A DNA stretch of 63,575 nt, filler included, from Collodictyon triciliatum (taxonomy: Eukaryota): the NCBI GenBank assembly GCA_043381765.1. It is 11 parts of 11 records of this genome, joined end to end, with 100 filler letters (N's around TTAATTAATTAA, not from the genome) between each part and the next. Parts side by side here need not be neighbours in the genome. Positions count along the whole stretch, not along the records: positions 54,685 to 60,932 come from JBHJMP010004607.1; 10 more parts are not named here. The stretch is one strand, 5' to 3'. A program made the translations under genes and the position numbers. Shown here piece by piece: positions 6,681-63,559 of the stretch. Below the pieces are notes generated by a model. It did no database searches and was not told the origin of the DNA. It worked only from the letters and a program-made list of their open reading frames with translations. Numbering within the stretch: the first letter of the stretch is position 1; the number at the start of each line of letters is the position of its first letter.

Positions 6681-8171
6681 TACTACTTCAGAGCTGTTAT
6701 ATATTGGAGCTGCTGCTGCTCTGCTAGGGCTTTACACTCTTATTAGGTCAAAAAATAAAAGCACAAGGATAGTTGGATATGTTACGCTTTCGGGTAATGC
6801 AGTTAATTAGTGAATGTATCTCAATTATTGTTTTTACAAAAGGATGTCTCAGTACATCTAACAGAGTCGACATGAAAGAGAAAAAGCAACAAAAAGCAAT
6901 AAGAAGCAACAAAAAGCAATAAGAAACAACAAGAAACAACAAGAAACAACAAGAAACAACAAGAAACAACAAGAAACAACATCCAGATAATAGCTCCGTA
7001 TCATAAACTGATGTTTAATTTCAAGTACAAATCTACTTGGATGTATATATACACGTTTTAACAGTCGCACATTAAAAAAAAAACGAATAGCACACACATT
7101 CTACATTCTTGTCTTTTGTTATCTGGCCAATCTGGAGCTGAACGACCCACTTCATCTTGGAGTCCAGCTCCGCTTCTTTCCTCAAGTTCGAATTTATCAT
7201 CGAGAAGCGGTTTCCCCCCTGCATTACTATTCTCTAATATAAATGGTCTATTTCATCAAGCCTTCTTAGTGAATCTATACGAACTTAATCACCAAAACAT
7301 TTAATATAAGGCTGTTGTAATTGTAACTTTTTGGGCGATACTTGGCTTTGCAAAATTATTTGCAACCAAACAAAATATACAATGGATAGCATTACTATTG
7401 GTAGGAGCTCAACTGTACAAACATTATGAAAAGTTTGACATGAGCCAAAATCACCACTTCTCCCAATTTGGAAGAGCCGTCTTGTCTGTCTTACCAACGG
7501 TAACGATTAATCATTACATCAAACTGTTGCATATTTTTTTTGTCGAAAAATTAAAATTATGGACTACCCGTTCTAATATTTTTATTATCACTTTTCCTCT
7601 CCCTGCTTCATATTAGTTATGCAAAACTTATTAAGTTCATAAAGTCTGTCACCCATTCACCGTAAATTGTTGTGGATATGCTCTAAAAAAATGTTTATAT
7701 AAATTACACACCTGCTAGAATGCAATGGTTTTATGTCGCGGAGACCTCGCAATCAATACCTTCCGGTACGTCCAAGATGTTGATGGATTCAGAAAGGATT
7801 TGACAATATTGGATCAGGTTTCTCAAAATTTACCCAGTCATTCTTTTTTTATTTTTTTATTTTTTTTTATTCTTCCTTTCAATTTGTGCAAGGTGATGGT
7901 ATTTCGACTTTGGTTCCCTAGCCATCATTTGCATTTACCTGACCATTCTATTCATTTCTATCATATAATCCTGTTTTGTTATTTCAATTGAGGCAAATAG
8001 GTTTGATGAAGATTTGGGTGAATAAAATACAATTATTCGCGCAACATTCACAACAAATCAGTTTAATTATTTTTCCTTTGCAATCCTCGAAAACTCTTAT
8101 ATGTTTTTTTTTTTTTTTTTTTTTTTTCCTTTCAGTTTGTGCAAGGTGGTGTTTAATTTTTTGCGGTTGTG

Positions 8172-8210
<39 letters not shown>

Positions 8211-9950
8211 TCTTCCTTTCAGTTTGTGCAAGATGGTGTTTAACTTTTGGCCGTTGTGCTATTTTTTCTTTTATATTTTCCATGACATTTCCCCAATCGA
8301 CCTTATTTTTTTTCTTCGTTGAGAAATATTACAATACTATCTAATCACAAATAGGAGATAATGACATGGGATTGGTTTTTGGAGATGCATAGAGAAACGT
8401 ATAGTCACGTAGTTTTCCCTGGAACTCATTATCACGTGAGCCAGCCAGGAAGCTACAACCTTTCCAATTTCCTTGCGCACAACATGGCCCGATTTCCAGG
8501 AGGCATATATGTACACGGCGGATTGAAACCTGGGTATGAGATTTATATCGCTCTAATAATGAATGGGATAAAATAGATATCATTTGGGAGCTGTATTGAA
8601 TAAAGGGAGAAAAATTGGGAACTGTATTGTAGTATTTTTTTCTTGTAAATTTACTTCAAATGAAAATTACTTATATTTCGCGTTACGCAAAAATAAATAA
8701 TAAATAAAATTAAATACATAAAATAATAGAATAAATAAATAAAATAAAATAAAATAGTACTAATTAAGTTTTCCTTGTTATGATGCCCAAAGTGATAACA
8801 GTTACCAATTGGAGTATGAATCCATCCCTTATGGATTGTCCGAAAAAATAGTCTACGCAGGTTTATTTTGAAATGATTATCCCTCTTAAGATTTTTTCTT
8901 CGTGTAGACGACCTAAACTGCATGCGTTAATGTCTCCTTTCTATTTTACATCAGGAAAGGTGATTGATATCGAAGAGTATGTCGTTGAGAACGAAGCGCA
9001 CATGCCCACCGAAGAAACAATGCCCATCCCAGATCCTGTTAAATATGGCGAAGAAACATGGGAGGTAAATTAAAAAGAGAAAAAGAAGTGAATATGACCT
9101 ATGAAAAAGTTTGGTGATATGATTTAATTTAATTTAATTTAATTAGATATTTATCATTATTTTTTTTTAATACCATCCAATAAACATGATTAACTTCACT
9201 ATTCTCGTCTCGTGGTCGAAGAACATGGTCGCTGTGAAATATTATGAATCAAAACACAACCAAGCACTATTCCTACTGAATAATGGTATCCAAACCCACC
9301 AGAAGATTTCATTTGTCAACGCAGGCAAGACATAATTACTTTCTTTTACTTTAAATTGTTGCTTAAAAATCAACAGCGACACAATTCCTATCAGTAACAA
9401 ATTGTGTTCTCTGGTCAATAATTATTATGAAATGCAGCTTATTTGATATACGTTAAATATGCAATATTGAATTCGTGACTCGTTCAAATATATTTTCTTT
9501 ATTTCTTCTCTAAATACATGAAAAAAATGCAATCCTTAAATTATTATTTCTCTTTTATATAGCAAACAAATTAGCTGAATTGCTAAAAGAACAGCCCAAA
9601 CCTGGAAACTGGGTTTATCGAAACGCGGGGATAGCTTATTCTCGCCTATTGACATACAACGATAACACGCATGAAGTGAGTCTCCATCTACTTGAAGAGA
9701 CTTCCTTAGCGGAGAGCAAATATGACGGGATATTATCAAATTAGGGACCTATCAACATTATGACATATTTATGTTTTCTTAATTTAATACACTACAATAT
9801 TCCTTTGTTGGTAGGAAGTAAGAGAATACCTGGAAGGAGTTGTTTCTACATGGTCAAAGTACCTCAAAGTAACTTCTACAATTTATTAGTTCGATAACAT
9901 AACAATACCATACAATAAAAGAGAGAAATGACTGGTCTGGCAGTTAATGC

Positions 9951-10325: not shown

Positions 10326-10642
10326 ACTGATTTTTCTACTGGGTTTCGAATCGAATATAAAAAAAAAAAAGAGAAAATAAAAAAGCGTCAAAATAATAAT
10401 ATATACATATACAGATACAGATACAGACAGATACAGACAGACACAGACAGATACAGACAGATACAGACAGATACAGACAGATACAGACAGATACAGACAG
10501 ATACAGACAGATACAGACAGATACAGATACAGATAATAAAACGGAATTATTCTCTCTCTCTCTCTCTCTTATTTATATATATATTTTTTATTACGTCGCG
10601 CATTACGCAACTGGGGCGAGGCGATGGGAAGGGGGCGTCTGG

Positions 10643-12714: not shown

Positions 12715-12786
<72 letters not shown>

Positions 12787-14107: not shown

Positions 14108-17100
14108 CATTCTAGAGAGACACCTCATTGATATATTGAAATTCCATTGAGTCTTTTTTTAAGAAACTCTCATATGATTAGGAAAAGTTCATGTAACTCG
14201 TAGCATTTTTTTTTATTGATATATATCTTTTAGGCATGTAAATAGAGAAATCAATAATATATATTTTGCTTTTGTAGGTTGCTCAAATCCACACCACCAA
14301 AAAAAACTAGTGTAATTTGTGCAATATATGCATTGCGATCTAATCAAGAATGGGCTTTCGAAGGTGTAACCGAAATTTCAAGGTATGTGATTTATGTGAG
14401 ATTATATCTAATTTAAATATCCTCCATTCTGCACAAAATGGAAAGGAACAATAAAAAATCAAATTAAATATTTTTGATTGGGAATGGAGTTTGTGTCAGG
14501 TAAATTTATGCGTCTACAAATTAACAAAGATGAAATATACACCACAGAGGCAATACAAGCCCATCGTTCATCCGTTCATTTGTCCTTCAATATGAGCCTC
14601 ATAAAGTATTCCGTATTGTTGTCTATGATTCTGAGCAGCCAAAATTGAACATACAGACCGATTCTCGATATGGGACCATTGTAAACTACCTTCTATAACC
14701 CAATTTTCCGGTTATATTAGTTAAAATCATCATAACATATACATTACTATTTATAATTAACTTCATGGACTTTAAGGAATTTAGCTTGGAAAGTTTGGTT
14801 AATGCTCCAGAAAAACAATTAACAAAGAAAATAAGGTTAGCAATTTGCTGCTTATATTGTGATAGCCTTCAACCTATAACTCAAAAATCAATTTATAGCG
14901 GGGTTTTGTTTAAGGAAATATTCATAATTAAAACTATATCGATTTACACAGTTCTCAAGAAGATGGGGCCAAACGTGAGGGATTTGTGACGATAGTCGGT
15001 AACATTATCAACTGTCTGATTAGGTGCACCATTTGCTTTAAACAAAAGCCTGCTATTGGTTCTCCTCTAAAATCCTCACTGTGATATGGACCTGACTTCA
15101 TCCATGCTAGGTTTCAAATGAGAGGCGAGTTCTTGAAGAATATTGAGAACAGCCAGGAGCCAGGTATTTTCATACTTTACTTCGTCTTTTGGTTATATTA
15201 ATTCTACGAAATAATTGTCTTGGGTAGATGCCACAACTTCAGATATGTGGCACATTTGATTGCAGTTATTTGTCTTTTTTTTCTTCTATATATTAAAATA
15301 CCAATAACACTTCACCATCCTGCACAAAATTGAAAGGAAGAATAAAAAAAATATAATACCAATAACACGTACTTTATCATACAGACACACTTTTTGTGTT
15401 GTCTCGTGTTGAGCATAGAGAGACGGGAAAATTGTCCAGACCTGTCTATTTCAGCGAATGTGTCGAAAAGAGTATATCACCTGTTTTTAAGTACGTCGAG
15501 GTGCCTTTTTCGTGTGTGTTTTCCTCAGAGAATGCTAGCGATCATCTCGAAATAGGCATATTTGAAGTTAATATGGGAATATCCAACCTAATCGGAACAG
15601 TGTCGGTGAGTGCAGTCAATAAGTTACACTTCTCTTATGTACACTGTTATATAGCTATTTGCAATCTGTGCCAACATCCTTATTTTTTTCATTAACTAAA
15701 ATTGCCAAACAGTTTACCGTATTTGATTTGGTGGTGCAACGTAAAACAAGATTTAAGTTGAGAAATGATATTGTGTCAGAGAATGAAAATAATTCTGAAG
15801 GATTCATCGAGATTCTAAAGTTTGAGATTAGAGACACTAGCACTGATTTATTCCAGCCTAAAGAAAGCGTTTCTCTCTCAAAACAACCAAGAAGGATTCA
15901 CTTAAAGCAAACACAAGAGCATATTAGACCTATTCAGTTAGTATCAAATTTTGACTTTACGAACCTTCAAGCCCGAATGGATTCACTGAAGCATTTGGCC
16001 GACCAGATGCAACGAGAAGCAGTAGAGGAAATAACCTTAGAGGCTGACCATGTTTTGAGTCAAATCACAAAGGATCTTTTGCCCAATGGTGAGTTATTAC
16101 AAGCACACCATATTTAATAGATATATATGTTTCTAATAGTATGGCAAGTCCTTCATGTTTTAGGATGGATATAATAACTATTACAAAATTTTTTGAATCG
16201 AATAAAGGAAAAAAAACTATTACAAAAATTTTCATAGAAACCGACATCTTCCAGGCAATTGCCTCAGAAAACTATGCAAATATACATGAACACAAATCAT
16301 AATTTATGTACAATCTGACCGCATCGTATGTTCATTATTGTAATAGAAAATGCCAGAACATACTTTCGAGAGAATGGAGGATTAGCCACTTTGGTAAAGA
16401 TGATGAAATCACGGGATAAGATAATATCCAAGCCCGTCTTGGGGCTTATGAAATTCCTGACATCAAACGGTGCATTTTTTTTTATTCTTAATATTTAGAC
16501 TATATCCCCTATCCCCTCCAACTGGTTGTTCTTTTTCCCTGATGCGTGTGTTTCTATCATATTTTCTCTCTGAAATCATACTAATGCAACTAGCCGAATG
16601 TTAATATCTCTAGGAGATACCCGCAAAGAACTTGTTAAAGCTGGCATTCTTCCTGTTCTTTCCATACATCTTTACTCCGCCTATGACGAAGACCTCAAAA
16701 GATTGGCCATTTGGAACATCGCGCACTTATGCAGGAATGAGCGTAATCTTAAAACATAACATCCCTGTTTGATATAGGCTCTCTAACAGCGATTCAAAAC
16801 AAAGTCTACTATCGCTTACTAAAATTCGATTGGTCTTTTTCTGTCATCTGATCTCTTGTTATCTTAAAAACAAAAAAATACAAAGAAAATATCTAAATCA
16901 AAGTGTGATATGCTACTATGCAAGTCGATAATAATACGCTAAGCGATGATTTCTTTATCAGCTAAAAATAAGGTGGCCATCAAAGATTTGGGTATCCTTC
17001 CCTTGTTAATTGGTCTTTTAAAATCATCTGATACTGATATGGTTTCACTGTGCTGTTGGACTCTCTCCACGATAGTTTTTAAGGATTGTACGTCATTTTA

Positions 17101-18890: not shown

Positions 18891-18969
<79 letters not shown>

Positions 18970-19295: not shown

Positions 19296-21479
19296 CGTGG
19301 CGCATACTTTCGAGGAATGGAAGTCACTTGGATGCAATTGAAGCGGGATGTTCTGCGTGCGAGGAACTTCAATGCGATTTTACCGTGGGTTTTGGTGGAA
19401 GGTATTTTTTTTTATAAAAAGAGTCGAAGGAGTTTCATTTCTTATTATTGACGAGCATTGATTTCTGCTCAACAAACAACCATATTAAGTCCAAATGAGC
19501 GAGGTGAAACGACATTAGATGCCATGATAATGGACAGGTTGCATTTTTGTTCTCGAAACTCATCCAAAGAACCCATCTTTAATCATTCCATCATTTTCAT
19601 TTGAAATGTGCGGTTATATGATCAATAGGGAATATATTATCTTCTTTTTGCTTTCATAATATTTTTTTATTTTGTGGCCAATTCATAAATCCACATTATA
19701 TGTTTGTATACTGAAGCATTTTTTCTCTCTCTTTTTGATTTGCTGGGAAAAAAAGTGAGGTTCATGATGTCGGTGCAGTTGCGGTGATGAAGAGAGTGAA
19801 ATCTGCCATATCGGTTGCTCGGAAAGTACTGGAAAACACAGCCCACACATTGTTGGTCGGAGAGGATGCCACGCAATTTGCTCTAAACATGGGCTTTAAA
19901 GAAGAGAGTCTGTCAACAGACGAGTCCAGGTCCGATATTTTCTTTATATATTTACTGTCTTTTCTTTTATTATGTACGACTGTTTTTTTTTCCGGATTTT
20001 TTACATGAATAGTTATAGACACATTTGCCATTTCAATTCATTGTATAAGAAAAAAAAAAGAGGAACCAAGTATAAACAATTAGTAAATAAACACAAGAAA
20101 GCGTCATCAAGATTGGCTCGCAAACTCGTGCCAACCAAACTTTTGGCGGAATGTTCGACCCGATCCAACCCAAAGCTGTGGCCCTTACTCTCCAATATCG
20201 TCCGAATCACCTGTCAAGTCCAGCGACCTGAGTCATTACATCGACAGGGTAAAATAAGAGAAATTGATAAGGAGAAGAAATAAGAGATACCACATATAAT
20301 GGGCGAAAAAAAAATCAAAGTGAAATAATTAAGAGAATTATGATTTTGAATCGAATAAAGGAAAAAGAAATAATAATGGTAATAGTAATGGTATCTAACG
20401 ATCACTTATCGATTGCGTATGGAAAATAGTACAACCATGACACCATTGGAATGGTTGCTATTGATACTCATGGGCGATTGGCTGCAGGCACTTCGACAAA
20501 CGGGCTCTCATTCAGAATCCCTGGCCGTGTTGGTGATTCGCCCATCACAGGTGCAGGTGCATATGCCGAGAAAGGAATTGGCGGAGCAGCAGGAACCGGT
20601 GACGGTGATGTTCTCGCACGCTTTCTACCAAGGTTTCTTTATCTGATTTAACTGTCTCCTCCATACAACCATGAACAGCTGAGAATATGCCAATCAAAGA
20701 AAAAAAAAGACATAATCTTTACAGAAAACGAAGTGGATATATGCGAAATGAATTTATGATGGGTATTCAGATAAATGAGACACAAAGAAAAGATGAATGT
20801 TAAAATAAAAAATTAAAATACTATACGATATGCTTTCTTGTATGTGCCTGTGTTTGATTTTTTTTAAAAAAAGAAAAGAAAAAAATGAGTAAATAATTAA
20901 GTCACAATTTTAATATAGTTTTCAGGTTGTACGCAACATGGCCGCAGGAATGAGCCCGAAAGAGGTATTTGTGCTTTGCTATCATACTTTTTTTTTTTTT
21001 GGTTCGTTGTCTGTCATGTATTAAAATCAAACAAGAAACCCTCTCATAATTAATTCGAGCTTGCTTTCGATACGCCTGACTTGAATCATTACAAAGGCGG
21101 CAGAGGATGCGCTTCGAAGAATCCTTCGCTTCTACCCAAACTTTTCTGGGGGTTTGGTCGCCCTCAACGCGAAAGGAGAACACGGTACATCCTCGAAGCT
21201 TGCACCCACCAAGAAAAAAAAAAGCATCTCTTTATAATTAATATTATGCGGAATCTCTCGTGCAAGTCGCGGTGATTTAACAGTCGAATGAAATGTGTCA
21301 TTATTCGGCTTTGTTCATCATGGCATTTTTTTTTTTATTCTAGCGACTTCTTTATAATCAACGTATCTTAAAATATCCGAATAGGAGGCGCCGGCCATGG
21401 TTTCAGCTTCAGCTATTCTGTGCAGAACGCAGCAAGTGGTGATGCTATTGTGATTCCAGTGACACCCATTTCGCTTTGA
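19296..21479 (+). CDS. AGA: N(4)-(beta-N-acetylglucosaminyl)-L-asparaginase (glycosylasparaginase), 5'-truncated
   Basis: [34 protein letters not shown], autoprocessing site HDTIGM, GTSTNG and [12 protein letters not shown]. All introns are GT-AG. Confidence 0.95.
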
Positions 21480-23762: not shown

Positions 23763-23834
23763 TCCGTTATGGTGTAGTCGGTAGCACGTATGGCTCTCAC
23801 CCATACAACCCGGGTTCGATTCCCGGTAACGGAA
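23763..23834 (+). tRNA. tRNA-Glu (anticodon CTC)
   Basis: Acceptor stem TCCGTTA/TAACGGA, anticodon arm TATGG-CTCTCAC-CCATA, T-arm CCGGGTTCGATTCCCGG, and a downstream TTTT Pol III terminator. Confidence 0.95.
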
Positions 23835-25427: not shown

Positions 25428-25902
25428 CCTATATTCGCCAATACAGTATATTAGTACTTTGATTGTAATTAAACCCTCTTTATTTAATCAATAAATAGAT
25501 ATCCATCCTGCCAGACAACATATCGAACTTGAATAATCTCACAAATCTCAGCATCAGCAACAACAAGGTACAAGTACTTGATTTAACAAGAATATATAAA
25601 CATAAATCTCAGCCTATCATAAATGAGAGTGTTCTGACGATTACCTACACTCCAAAGTTCAACGCATTGCCCGCAGCCATCTGCACATTGACACTCATCG
25701 CATCACTCGATATATCCACCAACCAGGTAACTAAATCCTTTTTTTTTAACAAGACATTCCTATATTCGCCAATACAGTATATTAGTACTTTGATTGTAAT
25801 TAAACCCTCTTTATTTAATCAATAAATAGATATCCATCCTGCCAGACAACATATCGAACTTGACGAATCTCACAAATCTCAGCATCAGCAACAACAAGGT
25901 AC
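25428..25902 (+). repeat. Near-identical duplication of an intron 3' end + LRR exon (25428-25571 and 25759-25902)
   Basis: The two 144-bp copies lie 331 bp apart and differ only at one codon (AAT versus ACG). Confidence 0.95.
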
Positions 25903-28900
25903 ACACATTCATATAGATATTGAATATATTTAAACACATAATTCAAACAGCCTAGTATACATTATACTTCATAAATTAACTGACAAATACACGGGGATTT
26001 TAGTTCGACACATTCCCCACAATCATCTGTACAATAACACATATCGCGACCCTCAATATTTCTGGAAATCAGGTTACAAAATTACACAACACATATTTTC
26101 AAAACAAAAAAAACTGATGAATGAACAATAGTTCAAACTATATTAATCAAATACCCTCTTAAACTCACCCATCGTACAAATCCAGATTTCATACATCCCA
26201 GATGTCATAGCAAACCTTGCAAATATTCAAAAACTGGACATATCCAACAACAAGGTCATATCTCTTCCGTTTTCCGTTTATTTGTTTATTTTTTTCCCAT
26301 TTTTTGGTTCAGTTTTATGGCCGTATTTCGCAAAAAAAAAAAAAAAAATAACAATATCATTATCAGATCGAAAAGCTACCCCAAATCATCGCCAAGCTTA
26401 AAGGCCTTCGAGGTGGACTGAATATCCAGGGAAATCAAATTAAAAATATCCCAGAAAACGTCATTAGAAATGGGTATGAGACTATCTTCGATTTCCTATC
26501 CAACTCCATGAATGGTGTTGTAAAATGGACCCAAGGAAGACTTCTGCTACTTGGTGAAGGAAACGTAGGGAAGACAACACTCATCAAATCAATCACACAA
26601 AATCACTGGTTTTTCAAGAATATGACAGACCAGCAAAGGATTGCAACTGATGGTATTGCCCACGTTGATATCGATGAGTCGATGATGGGTGGACTATTCA
26701 AGACAAAGATTTCCGTACAAATCTGGGATTTTGGTGGACAAGAGGAGTTCCAAGTAACACATCCATTCTTTTTGTCATCGGGCGCCCTCGTTTTAATCCT
26801 GTACAGACTCGACCAAGGCAAGGAGAAGAACAATCTCAGCCGCTGGGTCAAAATGCTCGATGACTTTGCACCTGGCTCAAAAATCATAATTGCTGGGACT
26901 CGTCAAGATTGCGAAAATCAAACTTATATTCAAGAGATGCAAAAAGAAATAGAACGTATCAAAAAAGAAAATGAGCGGAAACTGGATGAAAAAGCTCGCC
27001 ACATCTTCATCAGTACAGAGTTGAAAGTAAGCAACAAGAGAGGAACAAAAATATCATATTTGAAGGAAGAAGTATATAAAGGAATGATGACACTTGATAA
27101 CATGAACAAGGAAGTTCCAAAATCATACATTGGGCTGAAAGACTATCTGATTTCAAAAGGTCAAATATCGAAGTACGAACGAATCCAAAACACTTACGAT
27201 TTTGCCAAGAAGCAGCTGGGTATGGATAGAAATGAATGCGAAAGTGCTCTCAAATTCCTCCACGACCTTGGCTCGGTCGTTTGGTATTCATCACTTGAAC
27301 ATATCAAAGACATTATATTTTTAGACCCGCTCTTTCTCATTAATATATTCCGTTGTGTCTTCAGCTTCAAAGGTATCGGGAAGGACACAAATGGTATCAT
27401 TTTGTTGGGCAAGCTAAAAGACCAAATAAAACACGAATTGAAAATAGAACTAGATGAACATGTGTTCAATACAATTCTTCGAATCTTTGACCATTTCGGC
27501 CTTGGGATTCAATTCAACAAAGAATGCATCGCCTTTCCCTCACTGATGGAAGATTGCCAAAATCTCAAAGCATTATGGAATGAAAAACCAGAGTCAAACT
27601 GCATCGCTGAGACCTCTGTAGAGATAATTACCAATGGTGGAGTCCAGCTCTCTGACAAAAGCAACGTCGTCATACGGGCGCTTCGTTTGACAAAAGGGGC
27701 ACAAGCTGGAGTTCAGTATGACGACCAGTTTTTCAGAGATGTCGCATTCATACATCTGAATGCTTCGTACAAAACAGGAACGGATGAAATTCAACTGCTT
27801 CCTGGAGACGGTTTGATTATTTTGTATCAAATCCACCAGAAGAGCATTTCAGTCAAGATTAGAAAATACGAAAATGTGGTTCACGATGATGGCGATAGAA
27901 TCGTCAGGATTTTCGACATTCTTTGCACCTTCATCAAACAAATATCATCGATTCGACCAAATTTTGTGGAAGCATATCAATTTGAATGCCCTGAATGCCA
28001 ACGTCGTGGATTAGACGGTTATATTCAAACATCAGCAAAGATAAATGACTCAGAATTGAAAAAATGTACGAAGAGCCATCAATTGGAAGCGAGTACAGTG
28101 AAGCAAGGGCGCGTCTATCTGGAACAAGGTTTATTATAATCAATACATTCAAATATATTTTAATTTTCAACTTAATGATAATTTGATTATATGTTATCGA
28201 AAGCTTATAAATAATTTTTTTTAAAAAAAAGGAATCTCAAGGAGATTTGCCTCTGTGGTGAGAGCGAAAAAGACGAAGAAGTTGCAATCTGCTGAAGCAG
28301 TTCTTGAGCCGGATTCAATCGACCGGGAATTAAAAGACGAATGGATTCATGAAAAAATAGAACTGTCAGGTTATCTCGCAAAGGGGGCATATGGGCGAGT
28401 TTACACAACAACATTCAAAGGAAAAAGTGCTGTGGTGAAAATCCAAACTATGCAGAAGAACAAAGAGCAGACCTTCAGCGAGGTGATTCAATCGCTCATT
28501 TTTGAAAGCAAGTATCTGCATGAATGCAAGGAATGCGAAAACATTGTCAAATTGTTTGGTGTGTATCGTAAAGATGACGACTTTTTCATGATTATGGAGA
28601 ATGCAGGAATTTCGTTGAAAGCGATGTTGGAGAAGAAAAATATCAAGCCAACATTGCCTCAAGTCATTTCTTACACAATGCAACTTTGCAAGGGTCTCAT
28701 TTTCATGCATTCTAAAAATCTATATCACGAAGATTTGAAGGCCGATAACGTTATGATTGTGGGTGAAACAGTAAAAATTGTGGATTTTGGGATAGTGAGC
28801 CATCGCGACATAGAAAAGGTTGGTTCAAACTTACCGACGAGATTTGGTGAGAACAAGCAAGGCGGAACGGCTAATTGGCAAGCACCGGAAATCCATGAAG

Positions 28901-30678
28901 TCTCCTGTGAACCGTTTTATAATGATAATCCAAAAATGTATGGTGATGATGAAGTAAACATTGGCCATCGTGGAGAACCAAGTAATGTGTATGCTTTAGG
29001 AATGCTCGTTTGGTACATGTTCTCTGGTATCGAGCCGTTCCAGAATGAAACACAAACACAAAGTTTCATTATCAGGGGATTACGACTTGAAATACCGAAA
29101 GAAGCCACTCGGGAACTTAACCATCTCATCAAAACAAGTTGGAGGCAAAACTACAAGCTCCGACCTTCTCTGAATCAAGTTTCTGCATACCTGGATGAAT
29201 TGAAATCAGGCGAACAAAGGCTTTCTCAAAAGATGATGAGCGATTTGCTTCCAATTAAATACACTCCTTTGGCTGATATGTACCAGGGTGAATTTGTGGA
29301 GTGGCTTCGAGAGTATGGCTTTTTAAAACTAAGCGATATAATTTCAAATCAAAGCTGGGGAAGATTCCAAGAAATTCAAGACAAACTGGATGAAAGGATG
29401 ATGGTTGATATGTATCACATATCGCCGGATGAAATTTCTGCATTTGTTGAACTGTCGAAAGAGGAAGGCACTGGTAGCGATTCCCAAGCTCCAAAGAAAA
29501 AAGTTGAAGAATTATTTTACAGCCAATTGGTGACTCATCTCCAGAAAAAGAAAGACGAATTGTCAGAAAGACTGCTTGGGAAAGTGAAAGCTCTGAGGCT
29601 TGATGGAAAAACAATATCCAAGCTTGACCAGCCTGATGTCCACGCGATCCATTCGCTTTCTGAGCAAGAACTCTCGTTTGTGTCCCAATTCATAAACGAC
29701 CACCTACATCCAAATGAGATTGAGTCTCCTAAACATCCATTAAGCTCCGGTACCCTTCAAGATTTGGAAGAAATTCAATATATGAATGTGCGGTACATCC
29801 CTTACAATCATGGTATCCAACACGCAACCTCGCTGTGGATGGGCGATATGAAGCTCTCCCAGATTCCTAATTCGCTCAAGCATGTAGTCGGGTTAAAGAA
29901 ACTCTACCTCCATTCAAACCTAGTAATATTTACTTAATATCGATGAATAAATAAAATAAAAAAGCCACCAATACATTTAATTATTAACCATATTGTAACC
30001 CACCTCCTTTTTACAGCTTGTATATTTCCCGATGTCATGCTTCGCCCTTACGAACCTAGAGTATCTGGACTTATCAAAAAATAAGGTTTTCTGCTTGTGT
30101 TTTTTTTTTCTCCTTTACCAATTTTTAAATATACATATATACTAGTATATAATTTCATACCTGCATTTGAATCAACTTCATTCATAACTCCATTCTGCTC
30201 ATTTACTTTGATATACAGATATCATCAGTACCTGCTCAAATATCACACCTGACGGTTTTAACTCGCCTTGATGTCTCTCAAAATCAGTTGTCATCACTAC
30301 CTTCAGAAATATCATGCTTGAATGGTCTTATTCGCCTCGATGTCTTTCATAATCAGTTGATGTCACTGCCACAAGGATTATCGAGCTTAGCGTGCCTTGT
30401 ACAGTTGGATATCCGTGATAATTCGGTTTGTTAAATGTATAAATGTCGAAAAGTCAGGCCACTATTTTGAACTCATAATTATATTTCCATTCCTACATAT
30501 TGATGAGCTTCCTGCCGGAATTACTGCTCTGACTGCTCTCAGTCGCTTGTGCATCCGCAACAAAGAAGGAAAATCGAGCATCAAGAAGGCGCCTCCCGGC
30601 ATCACACTTCTGCCTTGTTGGAACGAGCAGAGCAATCCAGATTATGAAATAATTCGTAAACTGGTGCTTTATGACCAC
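25499..30678 (+). CDS. Roco protein: LRR-Roc-COR-kinase-(SAM-like helical region)-LRR; 5'-truncated, 3' end uncertain
   Basis: 69-nt LRR exons at 25499-25567, 25658-25726, 25830-25898, 26004-26072 and 26186-26254. Roc motifs GEGNVGKT, ATDGI and WDFGGQEEF. COR region with CPEC...C..H. A phase-1 intron (28129-28231) joins the kinase (KGAYG, HEDLKADN, DFG, APE). C-terminal LRR exons at 30017-30085, 30219-30425 and 30499-30678. Confidence 0.9.
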
Positions 30679-33150: not shown

Positions 33151-34324
33151 TGTTATTTTTGTTGTTGATTTATTTGTTTCGCAAATGAAACGACACGTAC
33201 TATACAAATTCATACCTTCATCAAACTTGTGGGCAATACTCTCAGAAAACATTATGTGGAAAAGGCGTGAGGAATGAGAGATACAGACGAAATGGATTAC
33301 ATTTTGTTGGAATTGCCTGTTGAAACCACACTTCGGGATGAGATAATCGCGTATCTATTTTTGTTTGCCATATAAGAGTCCATATTTTCCCAGAAAATCG
33401 AAGTCTCAAACGATGATAAAAGAAAATCGAAGCGGTGTATTTGCAAAATTTACTAAGCACAGAAGTTTGCATCAGAGCGACTTTGTGGCTCTTTTTCTTT
33501 TTCTTTTTCTTTTTCTTTTTCTTTTTCTTTTTCTTTTTCTTTTTCTTTTTCTTTTTCTTTTTCTTTTTCTTTTTCTTTTTCTTTTTCTTTTTTTCTTTTT
33601 TTCTTTTTTTCTTTTTCTTTCTTTTTCTTTTTCTTTTCTTTTTCTTTTTCTTTTTTATCTTTATTAAAGTTGAAATAGGTGCGTCCAAGATATAGCAATC
33701 TCGGTTTTGCAAGCTTTCATCCCAAAATGTATCCAAATCATTTGAATCCAAATCCAGGTCAGTCTCGGGCACAATAATTCCAGATATAGTCAAATTCACT
33801 GAATATTTATAGCCTGCTTGTGGTTGGACAAAAAAAACCAGAGCAGCCACGAATCCAAGCAGCAGCGGTCGAATGTGTGGGAAAAGTCGCCCAGGCAGGC
33901 AGTAAAGAATGCGAGGCGGAAGGGAAAAGCAAATGGAAGGGTGCAAGGAACTATGCAGCAAACTTGAGACCGTGTTTGGAGCAGATGATCACTGGCATAT
34001 GTATACACGAAGAAAAAAAGAAAGACGAGAGATGAGAAAGAACATTGCACTGTCCATCTATCTTCGATCTGCCTTGTTTCCTTTGCAGACAAGACTTGCT
34101 GTTGAATCGATCAGATCTTTTCATATTCCAAAGGAAAGGAAGAAGGAAAAGAAGAAGAAGAAAAAAAAGCGAGTCTCTGGATACGATAAGGCGTTCACCT
34201 TTTTGTGTGACGGGGAATGTGGCGTTAGTGAACTAGTGTGTGGAAGCAGTCTAGTGAATTGTATTTGTGGTGGTTTCGAAACGCACAGAGATAACTGCTC
34301 AAGTCCTATTCCTCAGTATACGCG

Positions 34325-38225: not shown

Positions 38226-38277
38226 GGGACGCCGGCAGCAAAGAAAAGGAGACGGGCATGCCCAACCCTTCAAAGGG

Positions 38278-38955
38278 AGAAAAAAAGAGAGAAAAAAAGA
38301 AAAAAGAGAGAAAAAAAGAAAAAAAGAAAAAGAGAGAAAAAGAGAGAAAAGAGAGAAAAAGAGAGAAAAGAGAGAAAAAGAGAGAAAAAAGAGAAAAAAA
38401 GAGAAGAAAAGAGAGAAAGAAAAAGAGAGAAAAAGAAAGAAAAAAAAAGAGAGAAGAAACAGAGAGAAAATGAAAAAAGAGAAAAAAGAGAGAAAGAGAG
38501 AGAGAGAAAGAGAGAGAGAGAAAAGAGAGAGAAAAGAGAAGAAAAGAGAGAAAAGAAAAAGAAGAGAAAAAGAGAGAAAAAAAGGAGAAAACAAAAAGAG
38601 AGAAAGAAAGAAAAAAAGAGAAAAAAAGAGAAGAAAAGAGAGAAAAAGAGAGAAAGAAAAAGAGAGAAAAAAAGAAGAAAAAGAGAAGAAAAAGAGAAAA
38701 GAGAGAATGAGAAAAAAGAGAGAAAAAAGAGAAAAAGAGAAGAGAAGAGAGAAAAAAAGAGAAAAGAAAAAAAGAGAAAAAGAAAGAAAAAAAGAGAAGA
38801 AAAGAGAGAAAGAAAAAGAGAAAAAAGAAAAGAAAGAAAGAAAGAGAAAATGAGAAAAAAAGAGACGAGAAAAAGAGAAAAGAAGAAAGAGAGAAAGAGA
38901 GAAAGAGAGAAAAGAGACAAAAAGAGAAAAAAGAAAAGGTGAAAAAGAGAGAAAA
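38278..38955. repeat. Long purine-only (A/G) low-complexity tract
   Basis: About 680 bp of almost exclusively A and G. Confidence 0.9.
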
Positions 38956-42472: not shown

Positions 42473-42524
<52 letters not shown>

Positions 42525-45706: not shown

Positions 45707-46676
45707 NNNNNNNNNNNNNNNNNNNNNNNNNNNNNNNNNNNNNNNNNNNNNNNNNNNNNNNNNNNNNNNNNNNNNNNNNNNNNNNNNNNNNNNNNNNNNN
45801 NNNNNNNNNNNNNNNNNNNNNNNNNNNNNNNNNNNNNNNNNNNNNNNNNNNNNNNNNNNNNNNNNNNNNNNNNNNNNNNNNNNNNNNNNNNNNNNNNNNN
45901 NNNNNNNNNNNNNNNNNNNNNNNNNNNNNNNNNNNNNNNNNNNNNNNNNNNNNNNNNNNNNNNNNNNNNNNNNNNNNNNNNNNNNNNNNNNNNNNNNNNN
46001 NNNNNNNNNNNNNNNNNNNNNNNNNNNNNNNNNNNNNNNNNNNNNNNNNNNNNNNNNNNNNNNNNNNNNNNNNNNNNNNNNNNNNNNNNNNNNNNNNNNN
46101 NNNNNNNNNNNNNNNNNNNNNNNNNNNNNNNNNNNNNNNNNNNNNNNNNNNNNNNNNNNNNNNNNNNNNNNNNNNNNNNNNNNNNNNNNNNNNNNNNNNN
46201 NNNNNNNNNNNNNNNNNNNNNNNNNNNNNNNNNNNNNNNNNNNNNNNNNNNNNNNNNNNNNNNNNNNNNNNNNNNNNNNNNNNNNNNNNNNNNNNNNNNN
46301 NNNNNNNNNNNNNNNNNNNNNNNNNNNNNNNNNNNNNNNNNNNNNNNNNNNNNNNNNNNNNNNNNNNNNNNNNNNNNNNNNNNNNNNNNNNNNNNNNNNN
46401 NNNNNNNNNNNNNNNNNNNNNNNNNNNNNNNNNNNNNNNNNNNNNNNNNNNNNNNNNNNNNNNNNNNNNNNNNNNNNNNNNNNNNNNNNNNNNNNNNNNN
46501 NNNNNNNNNNNNNNNNNNNNNNNNNNNNNNNNNNNNNNNNNNNNNNNNNNNNNNNNNNNNNNNNNNNNNNNNNNNNNNNNNNNNNNNNNNNNNNNNNNNN
46601 NNNNNNNNNNNNNNNNNNNNNNNNNNNNNNNNNNNNNNNNNNNNNNNNNNNNNNNNNNNNNNNNNNNNNNNNNNNN

Positions 46677-48050
46677 GTTGAGAATCATAAAGCAAGCTTA
46701 TAACATAATAAAAGGACATCCCCTTACAATTAGAGAGCGTCTTGATTTTATATTTTTGATTATTCGTAGTGATTAAGTTGCGGCAGATGTCTTTCAGCTC
46801 CTTCAGCCTTTGGGGATTCAGAAAAGTACCTTTCATGTTGTAGATAAAGGCCGACAGCATCACTCGATTCCACAACCTTACTTTCCCCACGTCCGAGAGA
46901 TGAAAGTTGCTCCACCCTGATATTTTCGACTTGATGTCTTCAACCAGGCTTGTCCATTTGCTATCCAATTGTGGACCGAAGATGATACCAAGATGCTTGA
47001 GTGGATGTGAGAGTGGCTTCCACACAATGTTTCCTGGAAACACAAGTCCGTCCTGAGAACCGAAAAGAATTCCATCTGTTTTTTCGTAGTTGATTTTCCC
47101 GCTGACAGCTCGTGTGTATTCCTGCATGCATTTGTTGGCGAGTGTGGCGCCTTCGTGAGACCGCAAGATGAACTCTGTGTCGTCTGCATATTGAAGTAGC
47201 AGTTGGTTGTGTACCTTGTTTTCGTTTCGGAAGTGGTTTGCAAGGCAAAGTCAGCGACAAAGTTGAAGAGCAGTGGTGCAAGTGGGCAGCCTTGATACAC
47301 CCCGCTCTGTCTTTGAATTGCATCCGTAGGTCCGTGTGCCGTGAGTGCCTTTCTGTTGCATTGTCGTGCAGTTTCTTGATAAGACCGGTCAATCCGGTAC
47401 AGAAGCCTCTTTTGTGTAGGATGGTTTCCAGTGCTTCGTGGTTCACATAGTCGTATGCTTTCTCCAGGTCGTAGAAAATCATAGCACGGTGTACCCCGCT
47501 TACTTGATATTCCATGTACTCCTTATTGTCAATCCAGATGTTTGTGTCGATGTTCCTTCCGTTCATGAAACTAATCTGCTCTTTGGATATGAGTTTGTAA
47601 GCGATGGGTGATATGCGATTTCTGAGTAGCGTCGTAAATATCTTATAGTCGTTATTCAACAGTGATATTGGCCGCCAGTCTGCAAGGTTGCTCGAGTCTC
47701 CTTTCTTTGGTATCAGCCGCACCGTGGCCTCTGTAAATCCTTGCAGTAGGTCGCCACCAGACATGATTCCATTCAGAAAAGCCACCAAGGGTGCCTTGAC
47801 CTCATTAAAGAAAGCAGAGTATATTCCGTTTGGCAACCTATCTGAACCTGGCGCCTTTCCGTTGTGTAGCGACTTGACCGCTTTCCACAATTCGCCTGCA
47901 TCTATTGGTGCTATCATGCTGGCTGCTTACGAGTATGAAGTCTTAGAGCAGTTTGTGGTGATAAGCTCGAGAGTAGCAGCATCATAGTCTTATCTTGACC
48001 ACATATTTGAGAAGAAGTCGTGGGTGTTCTTTTTGTTGTTACGAGGTTAT
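46677..48050 (-). mobile_element. Non-LTR retrotransposon (L1/Tx1-like) reverse transcriptase, frameshifted; 3' part lies in the gap
   Basis: KAPGSD, LIPKKGD...WRPISLLNNDYKI, DLEKAYD, QGCPLAPLLF and YADD (47179-47190) fall in three different frames. Confidence 0.92.
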
Positions 48051-50549: not shown

Positions 50550-50847
50550 CCAAGGAAAGGGGCAGTGGAGTCGGTTTGGGCGGATTCCGAGGCTGTGAGG
50601 GCGAGTGTACTGAGTTGTGTCTTTTGTGTCTTTTGTGTCTTTTGTGTCTTTTGTGTCTTTTGTGTCTTTTGTGTCTTTTGTGTCTTTTGTGTCTTTTGTG
50701 TCTTTTGTGTCTTNNNNNNNNNNNNNNNNNNNNNNNNNNNNNNNNNNNNNNNNNNNNTTAATTAATTAANNNNNNNNNNNNNNNNNNNNNNNNNNNNNNN
50801 NNNNNNNNNNNNNAAAAGGAACAAAAAAAAAAAAAAAAAAAAAAAAA

Positions 50848-50886
<39 letters not shown>

Positions 50887-51324
50887 AATATACGTATTTC
50901 GCTTGATGTACCAGTCATATCTTTTGTTGCCATTATTTCTTTGTGGTCTCTTTGTCAGTTGTGTTGTAATTTCCAGAAGTGGAAGTAATGTTGCGAATAG
51001 AACCCAAATGGGGCGGCAAGGAAGGCGAGAATGGTAAACATGGCTGTCGGAGCGAACAGGAATAATGCAGAGAAGCGGAGGAAATGGAAAGGGAGAATAA
51101 AATACGATCGGCGTGTGCCGAAGCAGTTGCGCAGTGAGAAGGTCGACCGTTGTCATTTGAGAATCTTTCGTAACAAGGGCTTTCTTTTCCTTTTATTTTT
51201 ATTTGATCTTGATATATGGAGGCGAAGAGGCCTTGTCTTGTGGGTCGAGCGATATTTTGGAAGGGAAGGATTTGTATGGCACTTTTCTTTCTTTTCTTTC
51301 TTTTCTTTCTTTTCTTTCTTTTCT

Positions 51325-54533: not shown

Positions 54534-54572
<39 letters not shown>

Positions 54573-54684: not shown

Positions 54685-55180
54685 GTTATGAGTCCCAGTC
54701 CTCCCTCCGTAGGTGGCTTAGAGAGCGTCTTGATTTTATATTTTTGATTATTCGTAGTGATGAAGTTGCGGCAGATGTCTTCCAGCTCCTTCAGCCTCTG
54801 GAGACTCAGCAAAGTGCCTTTCGTGTTGTAGATAAGGGTCGACAGCATCACTTGGTTCCACAACCTTACTTTCCCCACGTCCGAGAGATGAAAGTTGCTC
54901 CACACTGATATATTCGACTTGACGTCCTCAGCCAGGCTTGTCCATTTGTTATCTGATTGTGGACCGAAGATGATGCCAGGATAGTTGAGTGGATGTGACG
55001 GTGGCGTCCACACAATATTCCCTGGAAACATAAGTCCATCATGAAACCCAAAAAGAATTCCATCTGTCTTGTCGCAGTTGATTTTTCCCACCAAGAGCAT
55101 GTGTGTATTCTTGCATGCATTTTTGGCGAGTGTGGCGCCTTCGGGAGACCGCAAGATGAATGCTGTGTCGTCCGAATATG
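54685..55180 (-). mobile_element. Second, 5'-truncated copy of the same LINE (RT C-terminal part)
   Basis: Aligns by eye with 46730-47190. It begins at YSDD and includes SNFHLSDVGKVRLWN and KPPTEGGLGL. Confidence 0.9.
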
Positions 55181-55372: not shown

Positions 55373-55428
55373 AGTGCACCTTATTTCTGAATCGAATAAA
55401 GGAAAAAAAAGAGTACACCTTATTTCTG
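55373..55428 (+). mobile_element. Family A micro-insertion AATCGAATAAAGGA(n) with 17-bp TSD
   Basis: Flanks AGTGCACCTTATTTCTG and AGTACACCTTATTTCTG differ by one mismatch. Confidence 0.8.
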
Positions 55429-56813: not shown

Positions 56814-57389
56814 TCCTGTGGCTTGGAGGTTCGATAGGGCGTCAGCTCTTCTAGTAGCATATGATTATATACCCAGTAGTTGAACAAAAGGAGGTGGCTA
56901 GATCGTGGCAGCAAGTAGCTCATTTCCCAACCATACACTTTTTCCCTTTATTCGATTCAAAGTTGTTGCCAGCCATATATATTACGCTTCCGTACAAAAG
57001 TTTCAAAGGCTTGTCTTCTCTTCTCAAAAGGCTAGGCCTTCCGCAGCTGTGGCGGGTGCTTTCAAAAAAGAAAAAAAGAAAAAAAGAAAAAAAGAAAAAA
57101 AGAAAAAAAGAAAAAAAGAAAAAAAGAAAAAAAGAAAAAAAGAAAAAAAGAAAAAGAAAAAGAAAAAAGAAAAAGAAAAGAAAAAAGAAAAGAAAAAAGA
57201 AAAAAGAAAAAGAAAAAAGAAAAAAAAAGGAAGAAAAGAAAGGAACGGAGAAGTATTTTCTGAAACTGATCAAGGTAGTTTACTTTGGATGTGTGTTGCG
57301 ATGCGCCATACAAACGAGGCAGAAAACAACGATGTTAGGAGAGTATGCCTGCAAGATTGTGAAAGCAAACTCAGGGGATCTTCAAAGGC

Positions 57390-60658: not shown

Positions 60659-60713
60659 AACCACACATTGTTGCTGTTGAAAGGAAGAATAAAAAAAACC
60701 ACACATTGTTGCT
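60659..60713 (+). mobile_element. Family B micro-insertion GTTGAAAGGAAGAATAAAAAA with perfect 17-bp TSD
   Basis: AACCACACATTGTTGCT occurs at 60659-60675 and again at 60697-60713. Confidence 0.8.
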
Positions 60714-61377: not shown

Positions 61378-62212
61378 TTTGTCGCCGTGTCTCAGCCTTG
61401 CAAAGCAAGCGACCAACCCTCGAATCTCCATCTCGATAAATAACCAACTAAGAAGTACTGAAAGGACTGTGTAATACAAAAAGATGACACACATAAAAAA
61501 AATAATTCCTTCCCCTGCCAAAGCGCTGGGATGCATTTCAAGCGGTGCGTGTTCTCTTCACACCCCCCATTTTTTTCGCCCGCACGAAATCTACCGCCAC
61601 AAACACCGGACAAGAGACGCTTCACCCTCAACACATATGTGGAAAAAACCATACAAAGCCGGCCGTCTGTGGTCTTTTTCCATTTTTGTACATGTTTCTT
61701 GCGCCAGAATGCCATTGCTTTTGACACCATTATTTGCCCATAGCACAAGCTCAACCAACACGTCAGTGCGTCGCTCATCCCTTTTCTTTTTTCCCTTTTC
61801 TTTTTTCTCCTTTCTCTTTTTCCCTTTTCTTTTTTCCCTTTTCTTTTTTCTCTATTCTCTTTCGAGTATAAAGAGACATGCCCTCTTAAATGACAAGGCG
61901 CTTCAAAATGTCCTATGGTAAACAATCCTCCGTGTCTTTAAAGACAGGCAAATAGCTGGGGTTGAGCAGAACAAAAACGAAACCCTTTATACGAATGAGG
62001 ACAGGGCACACCCTCAAGCAACCCGACACCCAAAGCTTGACACACGCCAATGCAGTAATCTAATATACACATATTTTTGACACAGAGATACATGAGTGGC
62101 AATGAGCGAGAGGAAAGAAAAAGAACAAGAGTCGAAGCCGACTCGTGCATGAACCCTAGGAGGAACGAAATAGCTGATTATTTTTATTCTGTTCCTACCA
62201 CTTCAATCATTT

Positions 62213-62268
62213 CGCATGACTCTGGATTTTTTCCTCCTTTATTCTATTCAACCGTGTGACTCTGGATT
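62213..62268 (-). mobile_element. Family A micro-insertion, reverse orientation, with 16-bp TSD
   Basis: CGCATGACTCTGGATT and CGTGTGACTCTGGATT flank a sequence whose reverse complement is GTTGAATAGAATAAAGGAGGAAAA. Confidence 0.7.

Positions 62269-63523: not shown

Positions 63524-63559
<36 letters not shown>

What the first reader, a model, noticed from the sequence alone, without database searches (positions are those of the whole stretch)
55373..55428. Family A: ~15-30 bp A-tailed micro-insertions (TTGAATCGAATAAAGG-An) with 15-17 bp target-site duplications
Seen: the motif recurs on five contigs and in both orientations. Clear TSDs occur at 8584-8629 (only AATAAAGGGAGAAAAA inserted), 16176-16232, 55373-55428 and 62213-62268. 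Copies with weak or no TSD occur near 20345-20370, 56925-56980 and 10346-10370. The 3' end is fixed (AATAAA then an A tail) and the 5' end varies. Established: a long TSD, A tail and 5' truncation are the signature of target-primed reverse transcription by non-LTR retrotransposons. Inference: extremely abortive retroposition that leaves inserts about as short as their TSD, at a density here implying very many copies genome-wide. Standard repeat finders would miss them.
Basis: partly seen in the sequence, partly recalled or inferred. Interest (0 to 1): 0.75.

Follow-up and report, generated by a model that had tools for sequence, protein, structure and literature searches.

The report
Tiny A-tailed retrotransposon-tail insertions
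A 16-base sequence followed by a short run of A's has been pasted at least six times into this unidentified eukaryote's DNA, each time duplicating about 12-18 bases of the target, which is the footprint of LINE-type reverse transcription that copied only about 20 bases of RNA.

Summary
The motif is real and far above chance: 6 matches to TGAATCGAATAAAGGRAAAA against 0.05 expected, on 5 of the 11 contigs that make up the window. Four copies (8584, 16176, 55373, 62213) are flanked by 12-18 bp direct repeats that abut the insert. Only 9 to 42 of 20,000 controls outside tandem repeats score as high. Two copies have weak repeats and one doubtful copy has none.

The long, variable-length target duplication, the A tail in the right polarity, duplications that begin with A after a pyrimidine, and L1-like reverse-transcriptase fragments in the window all point to target-primed reverse transcription.

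One part of the description fails: the 5' end of family A hardly varies. Five of six copies start within two bases of TTGAATCG. A second family found here (...TTGCACAAAyTGAAAGGAAGAATAAA-An) does show a graded 5'-truncation series of 21 to about 88 bp with perfect 14 and 17 bp duplications.

So the mechanism is supported. Whether family A is aborted copying or run-off copying of a very short RNA stays open. No parent element or empty site lies in the 61 kb available. I rate it a new variant of a known kind, of moderate interest.

The parts
55373..55428 (+). Copy A4, the finding. TSD AGTGCACCTTATTTC(TG) at 55373-55387; insert TGAATCGAATAAAGGAAAAAAAAG at 55388-55411; TSD AGTACACCTTATTTC(TG) at 55412-55426.
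   Evidence: Flank score 15.0, reached by 13 of 20,000 controls. The TG shared by the insert start and the target gives a 2-nt microhomology at the 5' junction.
16176..16232 (+). Copy A2. TSD AACTATTACAAAATTTT; insert TTGAATCGAATAAAGG plus A7-8; TSD (A)ACTATTACAAAAATTTT.
   Evidence: Flank score 15.5, reached by 9 of 20,000 controls.
8584..8629 (+). Copy A1, the only clearly shorter one. TSD TTGGGAGCTGTATTG; insert AATAAAGGGAGAAAAA (16 nt); TSD TTGGGAACTGTATTG.
   Evidence: Flank score 12.5, reached by 30 of 20,000 controls.
62212..62268 (-). Copy A6, read on the minus strand. TSD AATCCAGAGTCA (12 nt exact, 14 of 17 if extended); insert TTGAATAGAATAAAGGAGGAAAA(A); TSD copy follows.
   Evidence: Flank score 12.0, reached by 42 of 20,000 controls. 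One substitution in the 16-nt core.
56919..56979 (-). Copy A5, read on the minus strand. Insert TTGAATCGAATAAAGGGAAAAAG at 56938-56960. The adjoining repeat is weak: TATATGGCTGGCAA against TGTATGGTTGGGAA.
   Evidence: Flank score 7.0, reached by 1,754 of 20,000 controls, so not significant on its own.
20346..20367 (+). Copy A3. Insert TTGAATCGAATAAAGGAAAAAG. No adjoining TSD; the downstream flank is a (TAATGG/TAATAG)n microsatellite.
   Evidence: Flank score 8.0, reached by 565 of 20,000 controls, and the locus lies in a TRF-masked neighbourhood.
10346..10370 (+). Doubtful diverged copy A7. TCGAATCGAATATA plus A11; 4 mismatches to the 22-nt consensus; no TSD.
   Evidence: Flank score 3.0.
60659..60713 (+). 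Sister family B, copy B3. Perfect 17-bp TSD AACCACACATTGTTGCT around the 21-bp insert GTTGAAAGGAAGAATAAAAAA.
15297..15368 (+). Family B, copy B2. Perfect 14-bp TSD AATACCAATAACAC around a 44-bp insert that ends ...CTGCACAAAATTGAAAGGAAGAATAAAAAAAATAT.
14410..14471 (+). Family B, copy B1. About 38-bp insert with an imperfect TSD of about 11 bp.
7828..8263 (-). Family B, longer copies. B6: insert 7845-7932 (88 bp), TSD AGAATGGTCAGGTAAAT against AGAATGACTGGGTAAAT (13 of 17). B5: 8104-8172, A24 tail. B4: 8173-8263, tail of about 36 A. B4 and B5 sit head to tail.
46678..47926 (-). Frameshifted fragment of an L1-like LINE reverse transcriptase, a candidate source of the enzyme. Its 3' side runs into an N gap (45707-46676).
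   Evidence: Pfam RVT_1, E 7e-15. Best PDB match is human LINE-1 ORF2p at 3.5e-16, against R2 at 1.5e-8. Relatives at 30-37% identity carry Exo_endo_phos, RVT_1 and zf-RVT.
54685..55179 (-). Second copy of the same LINE, 88.8% identical over 463 bp. It is 5'-truncated at about 55179 and cut off by the contig start. It lies about 200 bp from copy A4 and is not joined to it.

Best explanation
Each copy is a retroposed DNA copy of the last 16 or so nucleotides plus poly(A) of one RNA species. That RNA is the 3' end of a LINE or of a non-autonomous partner. The enzyme is an L1-like endonuclease/reverse-transcriptase acting by target-primed reverse transcription.

Proposed steps:
1. The bottom strand is nicked at a T|A-type site.
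2. The exposed T-ended 3' OH anneals to the poly(A) and primes cDNA synthesis.
3. Synthesis ends after about 16 nt of unique sequence, at or next to the pentamer TTGAA.
4. The short cDNA end is joined to the upstream target end, partly by microhomology, after a second nick 12-18 bp away.
5. Fill-in creates the target-site duplication. The net gain is 31-40 bp in the five loci measured.

Shown: insert, tail, polarity, duplications, enrichment, and an L1-like RT in the same DNA. Inferred: the RNA source, the nick-site reading, and early termination with a preferred stop at TTGAA.
For: 1. Recurrence far above chance: 6 matches against 0.05 expected.
2. Adjoining duplications of 12-18 bp in 4 of 6 copies, each matched by no more than 42 of 20,000 controls and confirmed by a second tool. 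Their length varies, as it does for LINE staggered nicks and unlike the fixed length a transposase leaves.
3. Polarity. In an unbiased scan of 43 non-tandem direct-repeat pairs, 5 were flagged as having an A tail against the downstream repeat; all 5 are family A or B. A sixth, 16176, went unflagged only because three tail A's were assigned to its repeat. The 3 'wrong-polarity' cases are 12-13 nt repeats around 62-76 nt spacers, which is chance level.
4. Specificity. 34 other A-runs of 10 nt or more show no flanking duplication apart from the B4/B5 pair. The same 20-mer at 10 prokaryotic loci has flank scores of only 4.5-8.
5. Sister family B shares the anatomy and shows graded 5' ends: inserts of 21, 38, 44, about 69, about 91 and 88 bp including tails.
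6. In at least 5 of 8 well-delimited insertions (A2, A4, A6, B3, B6) the duplication starts with A(A/G) after T or C. This is read directly, and is as expected if T's at the nick pair with poly(A).
7. L1-like RT fragments lie in the window.
8. The 5' junction of A4 has 2 nt of microhomology, and that of B3 resembles the target sequence. [quoted passage not shown]
9. TSDs of 12-18 bp are the L1 ORF2p norm (PMC11702581, passages read).
Against: The 5' end of family A is not graded. Five of six copies start within 2 nt of the same base. All six retain 21 nt or less of unique sequence, against one of six in family B (Fisher p = 0.015; lengths taken from my reading). Random early termination does not predict this. 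It needs a preferred stop or joining site at TTGAA, which I infer only from B3 starting at the same pentamer.

No longer element ending in the motif is in the window. The 3' ends of both RT copies are out of view, one in an N gap and one at a contig start. No AP-endonuclease domain was seen in the window itself. Two copies lack a significant duplication. The tails are short (5-9 nt) and interrupted by G. The sample is six copies.
Confidence: 0.5

Rival explanations
1. Same enzyme and mechanism (TPRT), but the template is a discrete, very short polyadenylated RNA of about 16-21 nt plus tail. It could be a site-specifically cleaved 3' fragment of LINE RNA. It is copied to its end (run-off) and mobilised repeatedly, so family A is full-length and not truncated.
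For: The 5' end is fixed in 5 of 6 copies and the length distribution differs from family B (p = 0.015). The duplications are discrete at 12-18 bp; in human cells that pattern is most typical of full-length insertions, whereas truncated ones show a broader range (PMC11702581, passages). An extra G precedes TTGAA in B3 and possibly in A6, as at capped or run-off 5' junctions in the same paper.
Against: No such RNA is known or visible here. Rfam finds no ribozyme or other processing signal, only one tRNA in the whole window. A1 is shorter (8-11 nt of core), and A4 starts 1-3 nt later with microhomology, as truncated copies do. An extra G is seen in at most 2 of 6 cases. Sixteen nucleotides is far below any described retroposed unit (recalled, not searched exhaustively).
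Confidence: 0.3
2. A DNA-level origin: excision footprints or solo termini of a cut-and-paste transposon, or filler DNA captured during double-strand-break repair.
For: The insert is short and sits between direct repeats, as transposon footprints do.
Against: The duplication length varies from 12 to 18 bp. There are no terminal inverted repeats. The insert is polar, with an A tail always next to the downstream repeat. The same 16-mer lies on five separate contigs, so local templated repair is excluded.
Confidence: 0.04
3. A conserved functional signal, such as a polyadenylation or termination element containing AATAAA, or a chance or low-complexity recurrence. On this reading it is not an insertion.
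For: The motif contains AATAAA and is A-rich. The genome is rich in A tracts.
Against: Expected 0.05 matches, observed 6. The adjoining duplications at four loci have no place in a signal model. Copies occur in both orientations with no consistent gene context, and no Pfam-bearing ORF ends nearby.
Confidence: 0.03

Closest known systems
5'-truncated LINE-1 (L1-clade) insertions made by ORF2p target-primed reverse transcription
   Same: A tail next to the downstream repeat, 12-18 bp target-site duplications, a T|A-type nick site, microhomology at some 5' junctions, and an L1-like RT in the same DNA. TSD range and model from PMC11702581 and PMC2912911, passages read.
   Different: Induced human L1 insertions have a median length of 712 bp (PMC11702581). 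Here the unique part is 8-16 nt, possibly up to 21, so it is about as long as the duplication. The 5' end is nearly fixed and not graded. The tails are only 5-9 nt.
SINEs and other non-autonomous retroposons that share a LINE 3' tail (stringent-type LINE/SINE pairs such as eel UnaL2/UnaSINE1; recalled, not looked up)
   Same: A specific short 3' sequence plus tail is what gets mobilised. Only two particular 3' ends (families A and B) are found as micro-insertions, while other A-runs show no duplications.
   Different: SINEs are 80-500 nt and carry an internal Pol III promoter. A 16-nt unit cannot hold one, and no tRNA-, 7SL- or 5S-like head is present.
Chimeric retropseudogenes carrying short LINE 3' pieces, such as Magnaporthe MINE chimeras (PMC2104539, title and abstract seen in the listing) and human U6-L1 chimeras (recalled)
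   Same: Very short 3'-terminal LINE segments with tail and duplications are produced when reverse transcription leaves the LINE template early.
   Different: In those cases the RT jumps to a second RNA, giving a chimera. Here the short piece is joined directly to the target with no second RNA.

Membership tests
Products of non-LTR (LINE, L1-type) target-primed reverse transcription | Target-site duplication of variable length that abuts both ends of the insert | tested here: met
   Four of six copies have 12-18 bp repeats, matched by 9 to 42 of 20,000 controls and confirmed. Two copies are weak.
Products of non-LTR (LINE, L1-type) target-primed reverse transcription | 3' A-rich tail next to the downstream duplication, in the right polarity | tested here: met
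   All six copies. Polarity scan of 43 repeat pairs: 5 flagged right-polarity cases, all family A or B, plus 16176, which went unflagged because three tail A's were assigned to its repeat. The 3 wrong-polarity cases are chance-level pairs.
Products of non-LTR (LINE, L1-type) target-primed reverse transcription | Fixed 3' end with graded 5' truncation among copies | tested here: not met
   Family A: five of six copies share one 5' end within 2 nt. The feature is met in sister family B, with inserts of 21 to about 91 bp.
Products of non-LTR (LINE, L1-type) target-primed reverse transcription | Endonuclease nick-site preference (L1: TT|AAAA on the insert strand) | tested here: inconclusive
   The duplication starts with A(A/G) after T or C in 5 clear cases of 8 (A2, A4, A6, B3, B6). 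A1, B1 and B2 are ambiguous. Read. Too few sites for a logo.
Products of non-LTR (LINE, L1-type) target-primed reverse transcription | An autonomous element encoding AP-endonuclease and RT in the same genome | tested here: inconclusive
   Two L1-like RT fragments are present. The endonuclease domain is seen only in database relatives, not in the window.
Products of non-LTR (LINE, L1-type) target-primed reverse transcription | A longer parent element whose 3' end is the motif | not testable with these tools
   None in the 61 kb. The 3' ends of both RT copies are out of view. No collection of eukaryotic genomes was available.
Products of non-LTR (LINE, L1-type) target-primed reverse transcription | Empty-site alleles or paralogues holding one copy of the duplicated segment | not testable with these tools
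   No paralogous flanks in the window. No reads or related genomes at hand.
SINE | Internal Pol III promoter or small-RNA-derived head; length about 80-500 nt | tested here: not met
   The unit is 16 nt plus tail. Rfam finds only one tRNA gene in the window, at 23763-23834, unrelated to any copy.
Cut-and-paste DNA transposon footprint or MITE | Terminal inverted repeats and a duplication of fixed, family-specific length | tested here: not met
   The insert is polar with no inverted termini, and the duplications range over 12-18 bp.

The most novel reading that the evidence does not exclude
Family A is not a truncated LINE. It is the genomic fossil of a discrete RNA of about 16-21 nt plus poly(A), for example the 3' product of a site-specific cut in LINE RNA by a host defence nuclease or a self-cleaving motif just upstream of TTGAA. 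The LINE machinery still recognises this RNA and copies it to its end. It would be the shortest retroposed unit described, and these insertions would record RNA cleavage events at roughly one per 10 kb.
Probability: 0.25. Interest if true: 0.7.

Novelty: new variant of a known kind. Interest (0 to 1): 0.45.

Why it matters
If this sample is representative, with 6-7 family A and 6 family B copies in 61 kb, most completed LINE integration events in this genome leave only about 20-40 bp of new DNA. Repeat libraries and similarity-based maskers would probably not report them (inference, not tested).

Such events would be a hidden source of small insertions, each carrying an AATAAA signal that could truncate transcripts. 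They also give a natural record of how often target-primed reverse transcription starts but does not proceed, which is hard to measure in mammals because the products are nearly invisible.

The nearly fixed 5' end points to a specific stop, joining site or RNA end that could be found by experiment.

Tried and rejected
Parent element. A self-BLAST of the window, inspection of both RT copies and short-query BLAST with the longest family B copies found no longer element ending in either motif. The two RT copies stop being alike at 46730/54718. There the contig-10 copy stays in an open reading frame, so that point is not the element's 3' end.

Empty sites. The flanks of 12 loci have no paralogues in the window.

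Longer A-tailed insertions. A 13-mer search up to 6 kb upstream of every A-run was swamped by (GA)n and A-rich low complexity and gave no convincing long insertion.

Poly(A)-only events. 34 A-runs of 10 nt or more show no duplication other than the B4/B5 pair.

Known RNAs and ribozymes. Rfam at gathering thresholds finds only one tRNA.

Organism. Three protein searches left the taxon open:
- kinase, best hit 48% identity to an unnamed EukProt transcriptome protein;
- RT;
- WD40, generic 33% hits.
I did not try to trace the unnamed record.

Prokaryotic collection. The 20-mer occurs once in each of 10 genomes, several times inside what looks like one conserved gene, with no duplications. These are chance hits and served as a negative control.

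Literature. Four searches found no report of a class of about 20-bp LINE-tail insertions, and no paper holds the motif strings (0 papers). Subscription journals and bioRxiv supplements were not searchable.

Unmasked TSD controls were rejected because about 4% of random positions fall in tandem repeats.

A possible resemblance between the bases upstream of TTGAA in A5/A6 and the family B sequence GCACAAA was examined by eye. It was too weak to use.

Full report
WHAT THE WINDOW IS. The 63,575 bases are not one locus. They are 11 contig pieces (ten of them about 6.2 kb or shorter) joined by artificial N44-TTAATTAATTAA-N44 spacers, with two further N gaps. The DNA is eukaryotic, about 37% G+C, and gene-poor. 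Long open frames encode a Roc-COR GTPase followed by a protein kinase (26352-29937), LRR, NHL and WD40 proteins, and an RPC4-like protein. There is one tRNA-Glu gene. The nearest protein match is only 48% identical, to an unnamed EukProt transcriptome protein. I could not place the organism.

THE OBSERVATION. GAATCGAATAAAGG with up to two mismatches gives 7 matches against 0.92 expected. The longer TGAATCGAATAAAGGRAAAA with up to three mismatches gives 6 against 0.05 expected, and none of 100 shuffles reaches 6. The copies lie on five contigs, four on the plus strand and two on the minus strand, plus a diverged candidate at 10346.

I scored the best local alignment between the 30 bases on each side of each insert and compared it with 20,000 random pseudo-inserts placed outside tandem repeats. 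Controls scoring at least as high were:
- 16176: 9
- 55373: 13
- 8584: 30
- 62213: 42
- 20346: 565
- 56925: 1,754
- 10346: 19,994

Without masking tandem repeats, about 4% of random positions score as high, so the masking matters. The repeat finder recovers the four clear pairs. This part of the description is confirmed: four clear duplications, two weak, one none.

WHAT IS NOT AS DESCRIBED. It hardly does. The copies at 16193, 20346, 56960 (minus) and 62251 (minus) begin TTGAAT. The copy at 55388 begins TGAAT, with TG shared with the target. Only the 8584 copy is shorter (AATAAAGG...). All six keep 21 nt or less of unique sequence.

AN UNBIASED LOOK FINDS A SECOND FAMILY. I scanned the whole window for any short spacer between direct repeats outside tandem repeats. 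Among 43 such pairs, every one with a repeat of 15 nt or more around a spacer under 50 nt belongs either to this family or to a second A-tailed family. The second family ends ...ACCATCACCTTGCACAAAyTGAAAGGAAGAATAAA-An. Its motif gives 6 matches against 0.02 expected.

Family B has the classic anatomy:
- a 21-bp insert with a perfect 17-bp duplication (60659-60713);
- a 44-bp insert with a perfect 14-bp duplication (15297-15368);
- an insert of about 38 bp (14410-14471);
- two head-to-tail copies with tails of about 36 and 24 A's (8104-8263, minus strand);
- an 88-bp insert with a 13-of-17 duplication (7828-7949, minus strand).

Its shortest copy starts at TTGAA, the same pentamer that opens family A, and the two tails are alike at 10 of 16 positions (my alignment of the sequences). 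Cases with the tail on the wrong side of the spacer number three. All three are 12-13 nt repeats around 62-76 nt spacers, which is chance level.

SPECIFICITY. The genome is full of long A and T tracts, up to 121 nt, often at contig ends. Of the 34 A-runs of 10 nt or more that I could test, none has a flanking duplication apart from the B4/B5 pair. The family A 20-mer occurs once in each of 10 prokaryotic genomes in the public collection, with flank scores of 4.5-8, that is, no duplication. So the duplications go with these two particular 3' ends in this genome. They do not go with A-runs or with the motif as such.

THE ENZYME. The window holds a frameshifted reverse-transcriptase fragment (46678-47926, minus strand; RVT_1) and a second copy 88.8% identical over 463 bp (54718-55179), 5'-truncated at about 55179. 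Its best solved relative is human LINE-1 ORF2p (E 3.5e-16, against 1.5e-8 for R2). Its database relatives, at 30-37% identity, carry AP-endonuclease, RT and zf-RVT domains. The 3' ends of both copies are out of view, one in an N gap and one at a contig start. I therefore cannot say whether this element ends in either motif.

MECHANISM. The anatomy fits L1-type target-primed reverse transcription. The features are:
- duplications of 12-18 bp, the range reported for ORF2p (PMC11702581, passages);
- an A tail next to the downstream copy;
- duplications that begin with A(A/G) after T or C in five clear cases of eight (read), as expected if T's at the nick pair with poly(A);

Divergence is compatible with neutral ageing. 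There is 1 change in 87 core positions, against 3 differences in 59 positions between the conservatively delimited duplication copies (my count).

THE OPEN POINT. Family A differs from family B in length distribution: 6 of 6 against 1 of 6 with 21 nt or less of unique sequence, Fisher p = 0.015. Purely random early termination does not predict a fixed 5' end. There are two readings. Reverse transcription may stop, or the cDNA may be joined, preferentially at TTGAA. That is my best reading, at 0.5. Or the template may be a discrete short RNA copied to its end, at 0.3. That rival draws some support from the discrete duplication lengths and from an extra G before TTGAA in one or two copies, features of full-length insertions in human cells. 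DNA-transposon footprints, repair filler, a functional signal and chance are each poorly supported. The duplication length varies, the insert is polar, it lies on five contigs, and the enrichment is more than 100-fold.

COMPARISON AND NOVELTY. In mechanism this is ordinary LINE retroposition. What departs from known cases is the scale and the shape. The unique insert is about as long as the duplication it creates, whereas induced human L1 insertions have a median of 712 bp. The 5' end is nearly fixed. In this small sample such micro-insertions (12) outnumber recognisable LINE bodies (2).

Four literature searches found no description of such a class, and no paper contains the motifs. Subscription journals and preprint supplements were not searchable, so this is not proof of absence. 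I rate it a new variant of a known kind, interest 0.45.

LIMITS. There are six copies in 61 kb of an unidentified genome. No parent, no empty sites, no reads, no RNA data and no eukaryotic genome collection were available. The copy-number extrapolation and the claim that repeat finders miss these insertions are untested inferences.

Noticed in passing
7828-8263 (-), 14410-14471 (+), 15297-15368 (+), 60659-60713 (+): A second A-tailed micro-insertion family ('B', ...TTGCACAAAyTGAAAGGAAGAATAAA-An). It has graded 5' ends (inserts of 21 to about 91 bp with tails) and perfect 14- and 17-bp target-site duplications. Its shortest copy starts at the same TTGAA pentamer as family A.
   Followed up: yes
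46678-47926 (-) and 54685-55179 (-): Two copies of an L1-like LINE reverse transcriptase, 88.8% identical over 463 bp. One is frameshifted and runs into an N gap. The other is 5'-truncated inside the RT and cut off by the contig start. They stop being alike at 46730/54718, where only the contig-10 copy keeps its open frame.
   Followed up: partly
8104-8263 (-): Two family B copies sit head to tail, each starting GCACAAC(G/C)GC, with tails of about 36 and 24 A's, and are 88.6% alike over 70 nt. Whether this is a tandem duplication or two hits at one site was not resolved.
   Followed up: partly
1-121, 6359-6405, 12715-12784, 18893-18969, 50823-50888, 54536-54570, 63527-63557; also 12470-12524 and 42474-42523: Very long A or T homopolymer tracts (up to 121 nt), many exactly at contig ends, so the assembly seems to break at them. 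None of the testable ones has a flanking duplication.
   Followed up: partly
38272-38955, 57064-57245, 33490-33662: Long purine-rich (GA/GAAAA)n-like arrays that resemble one another (about 81-89% identity) on three contigs. They create spurious long open frames.
   Followed up: no
TSD pairs at 8584/8615, 55373/55412, 62252/62212, 7933/7828; tails of the family A copies: Most differences between the two copies of a duplication are transitions (about 10 against 2-3 transversions by my count), sometimes clustered: four adjacent in B6, three of five in A6. The short A tails are interrupted by or end in G. This could be ordinary mutation bias, junction filler or error-prone fill-in. There are too few sites to test.
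   Followed up: no
26352-29937 (+): A ROCO-type gene. One open frame holds Roc GTPase and COR-A domains, followed after about 85 bp by a protein-kinase frame. The nearest database protein is only 48% identical.
   Followed up: partly
25428-25572 and 25759-25903: A 145-bp direct duplication at 98.6% identity, 331 bp apart.
   Followed up: no
L003, L005, L006, L008, L010 (prokaryotic loci): The family A 20-mer falls in what looks like one conserved coding region shared by several Bacteroidota genomes. This explains why 10 chance hits were found when about 1 was expected for a uniform 20-mer.
   Followed up: no
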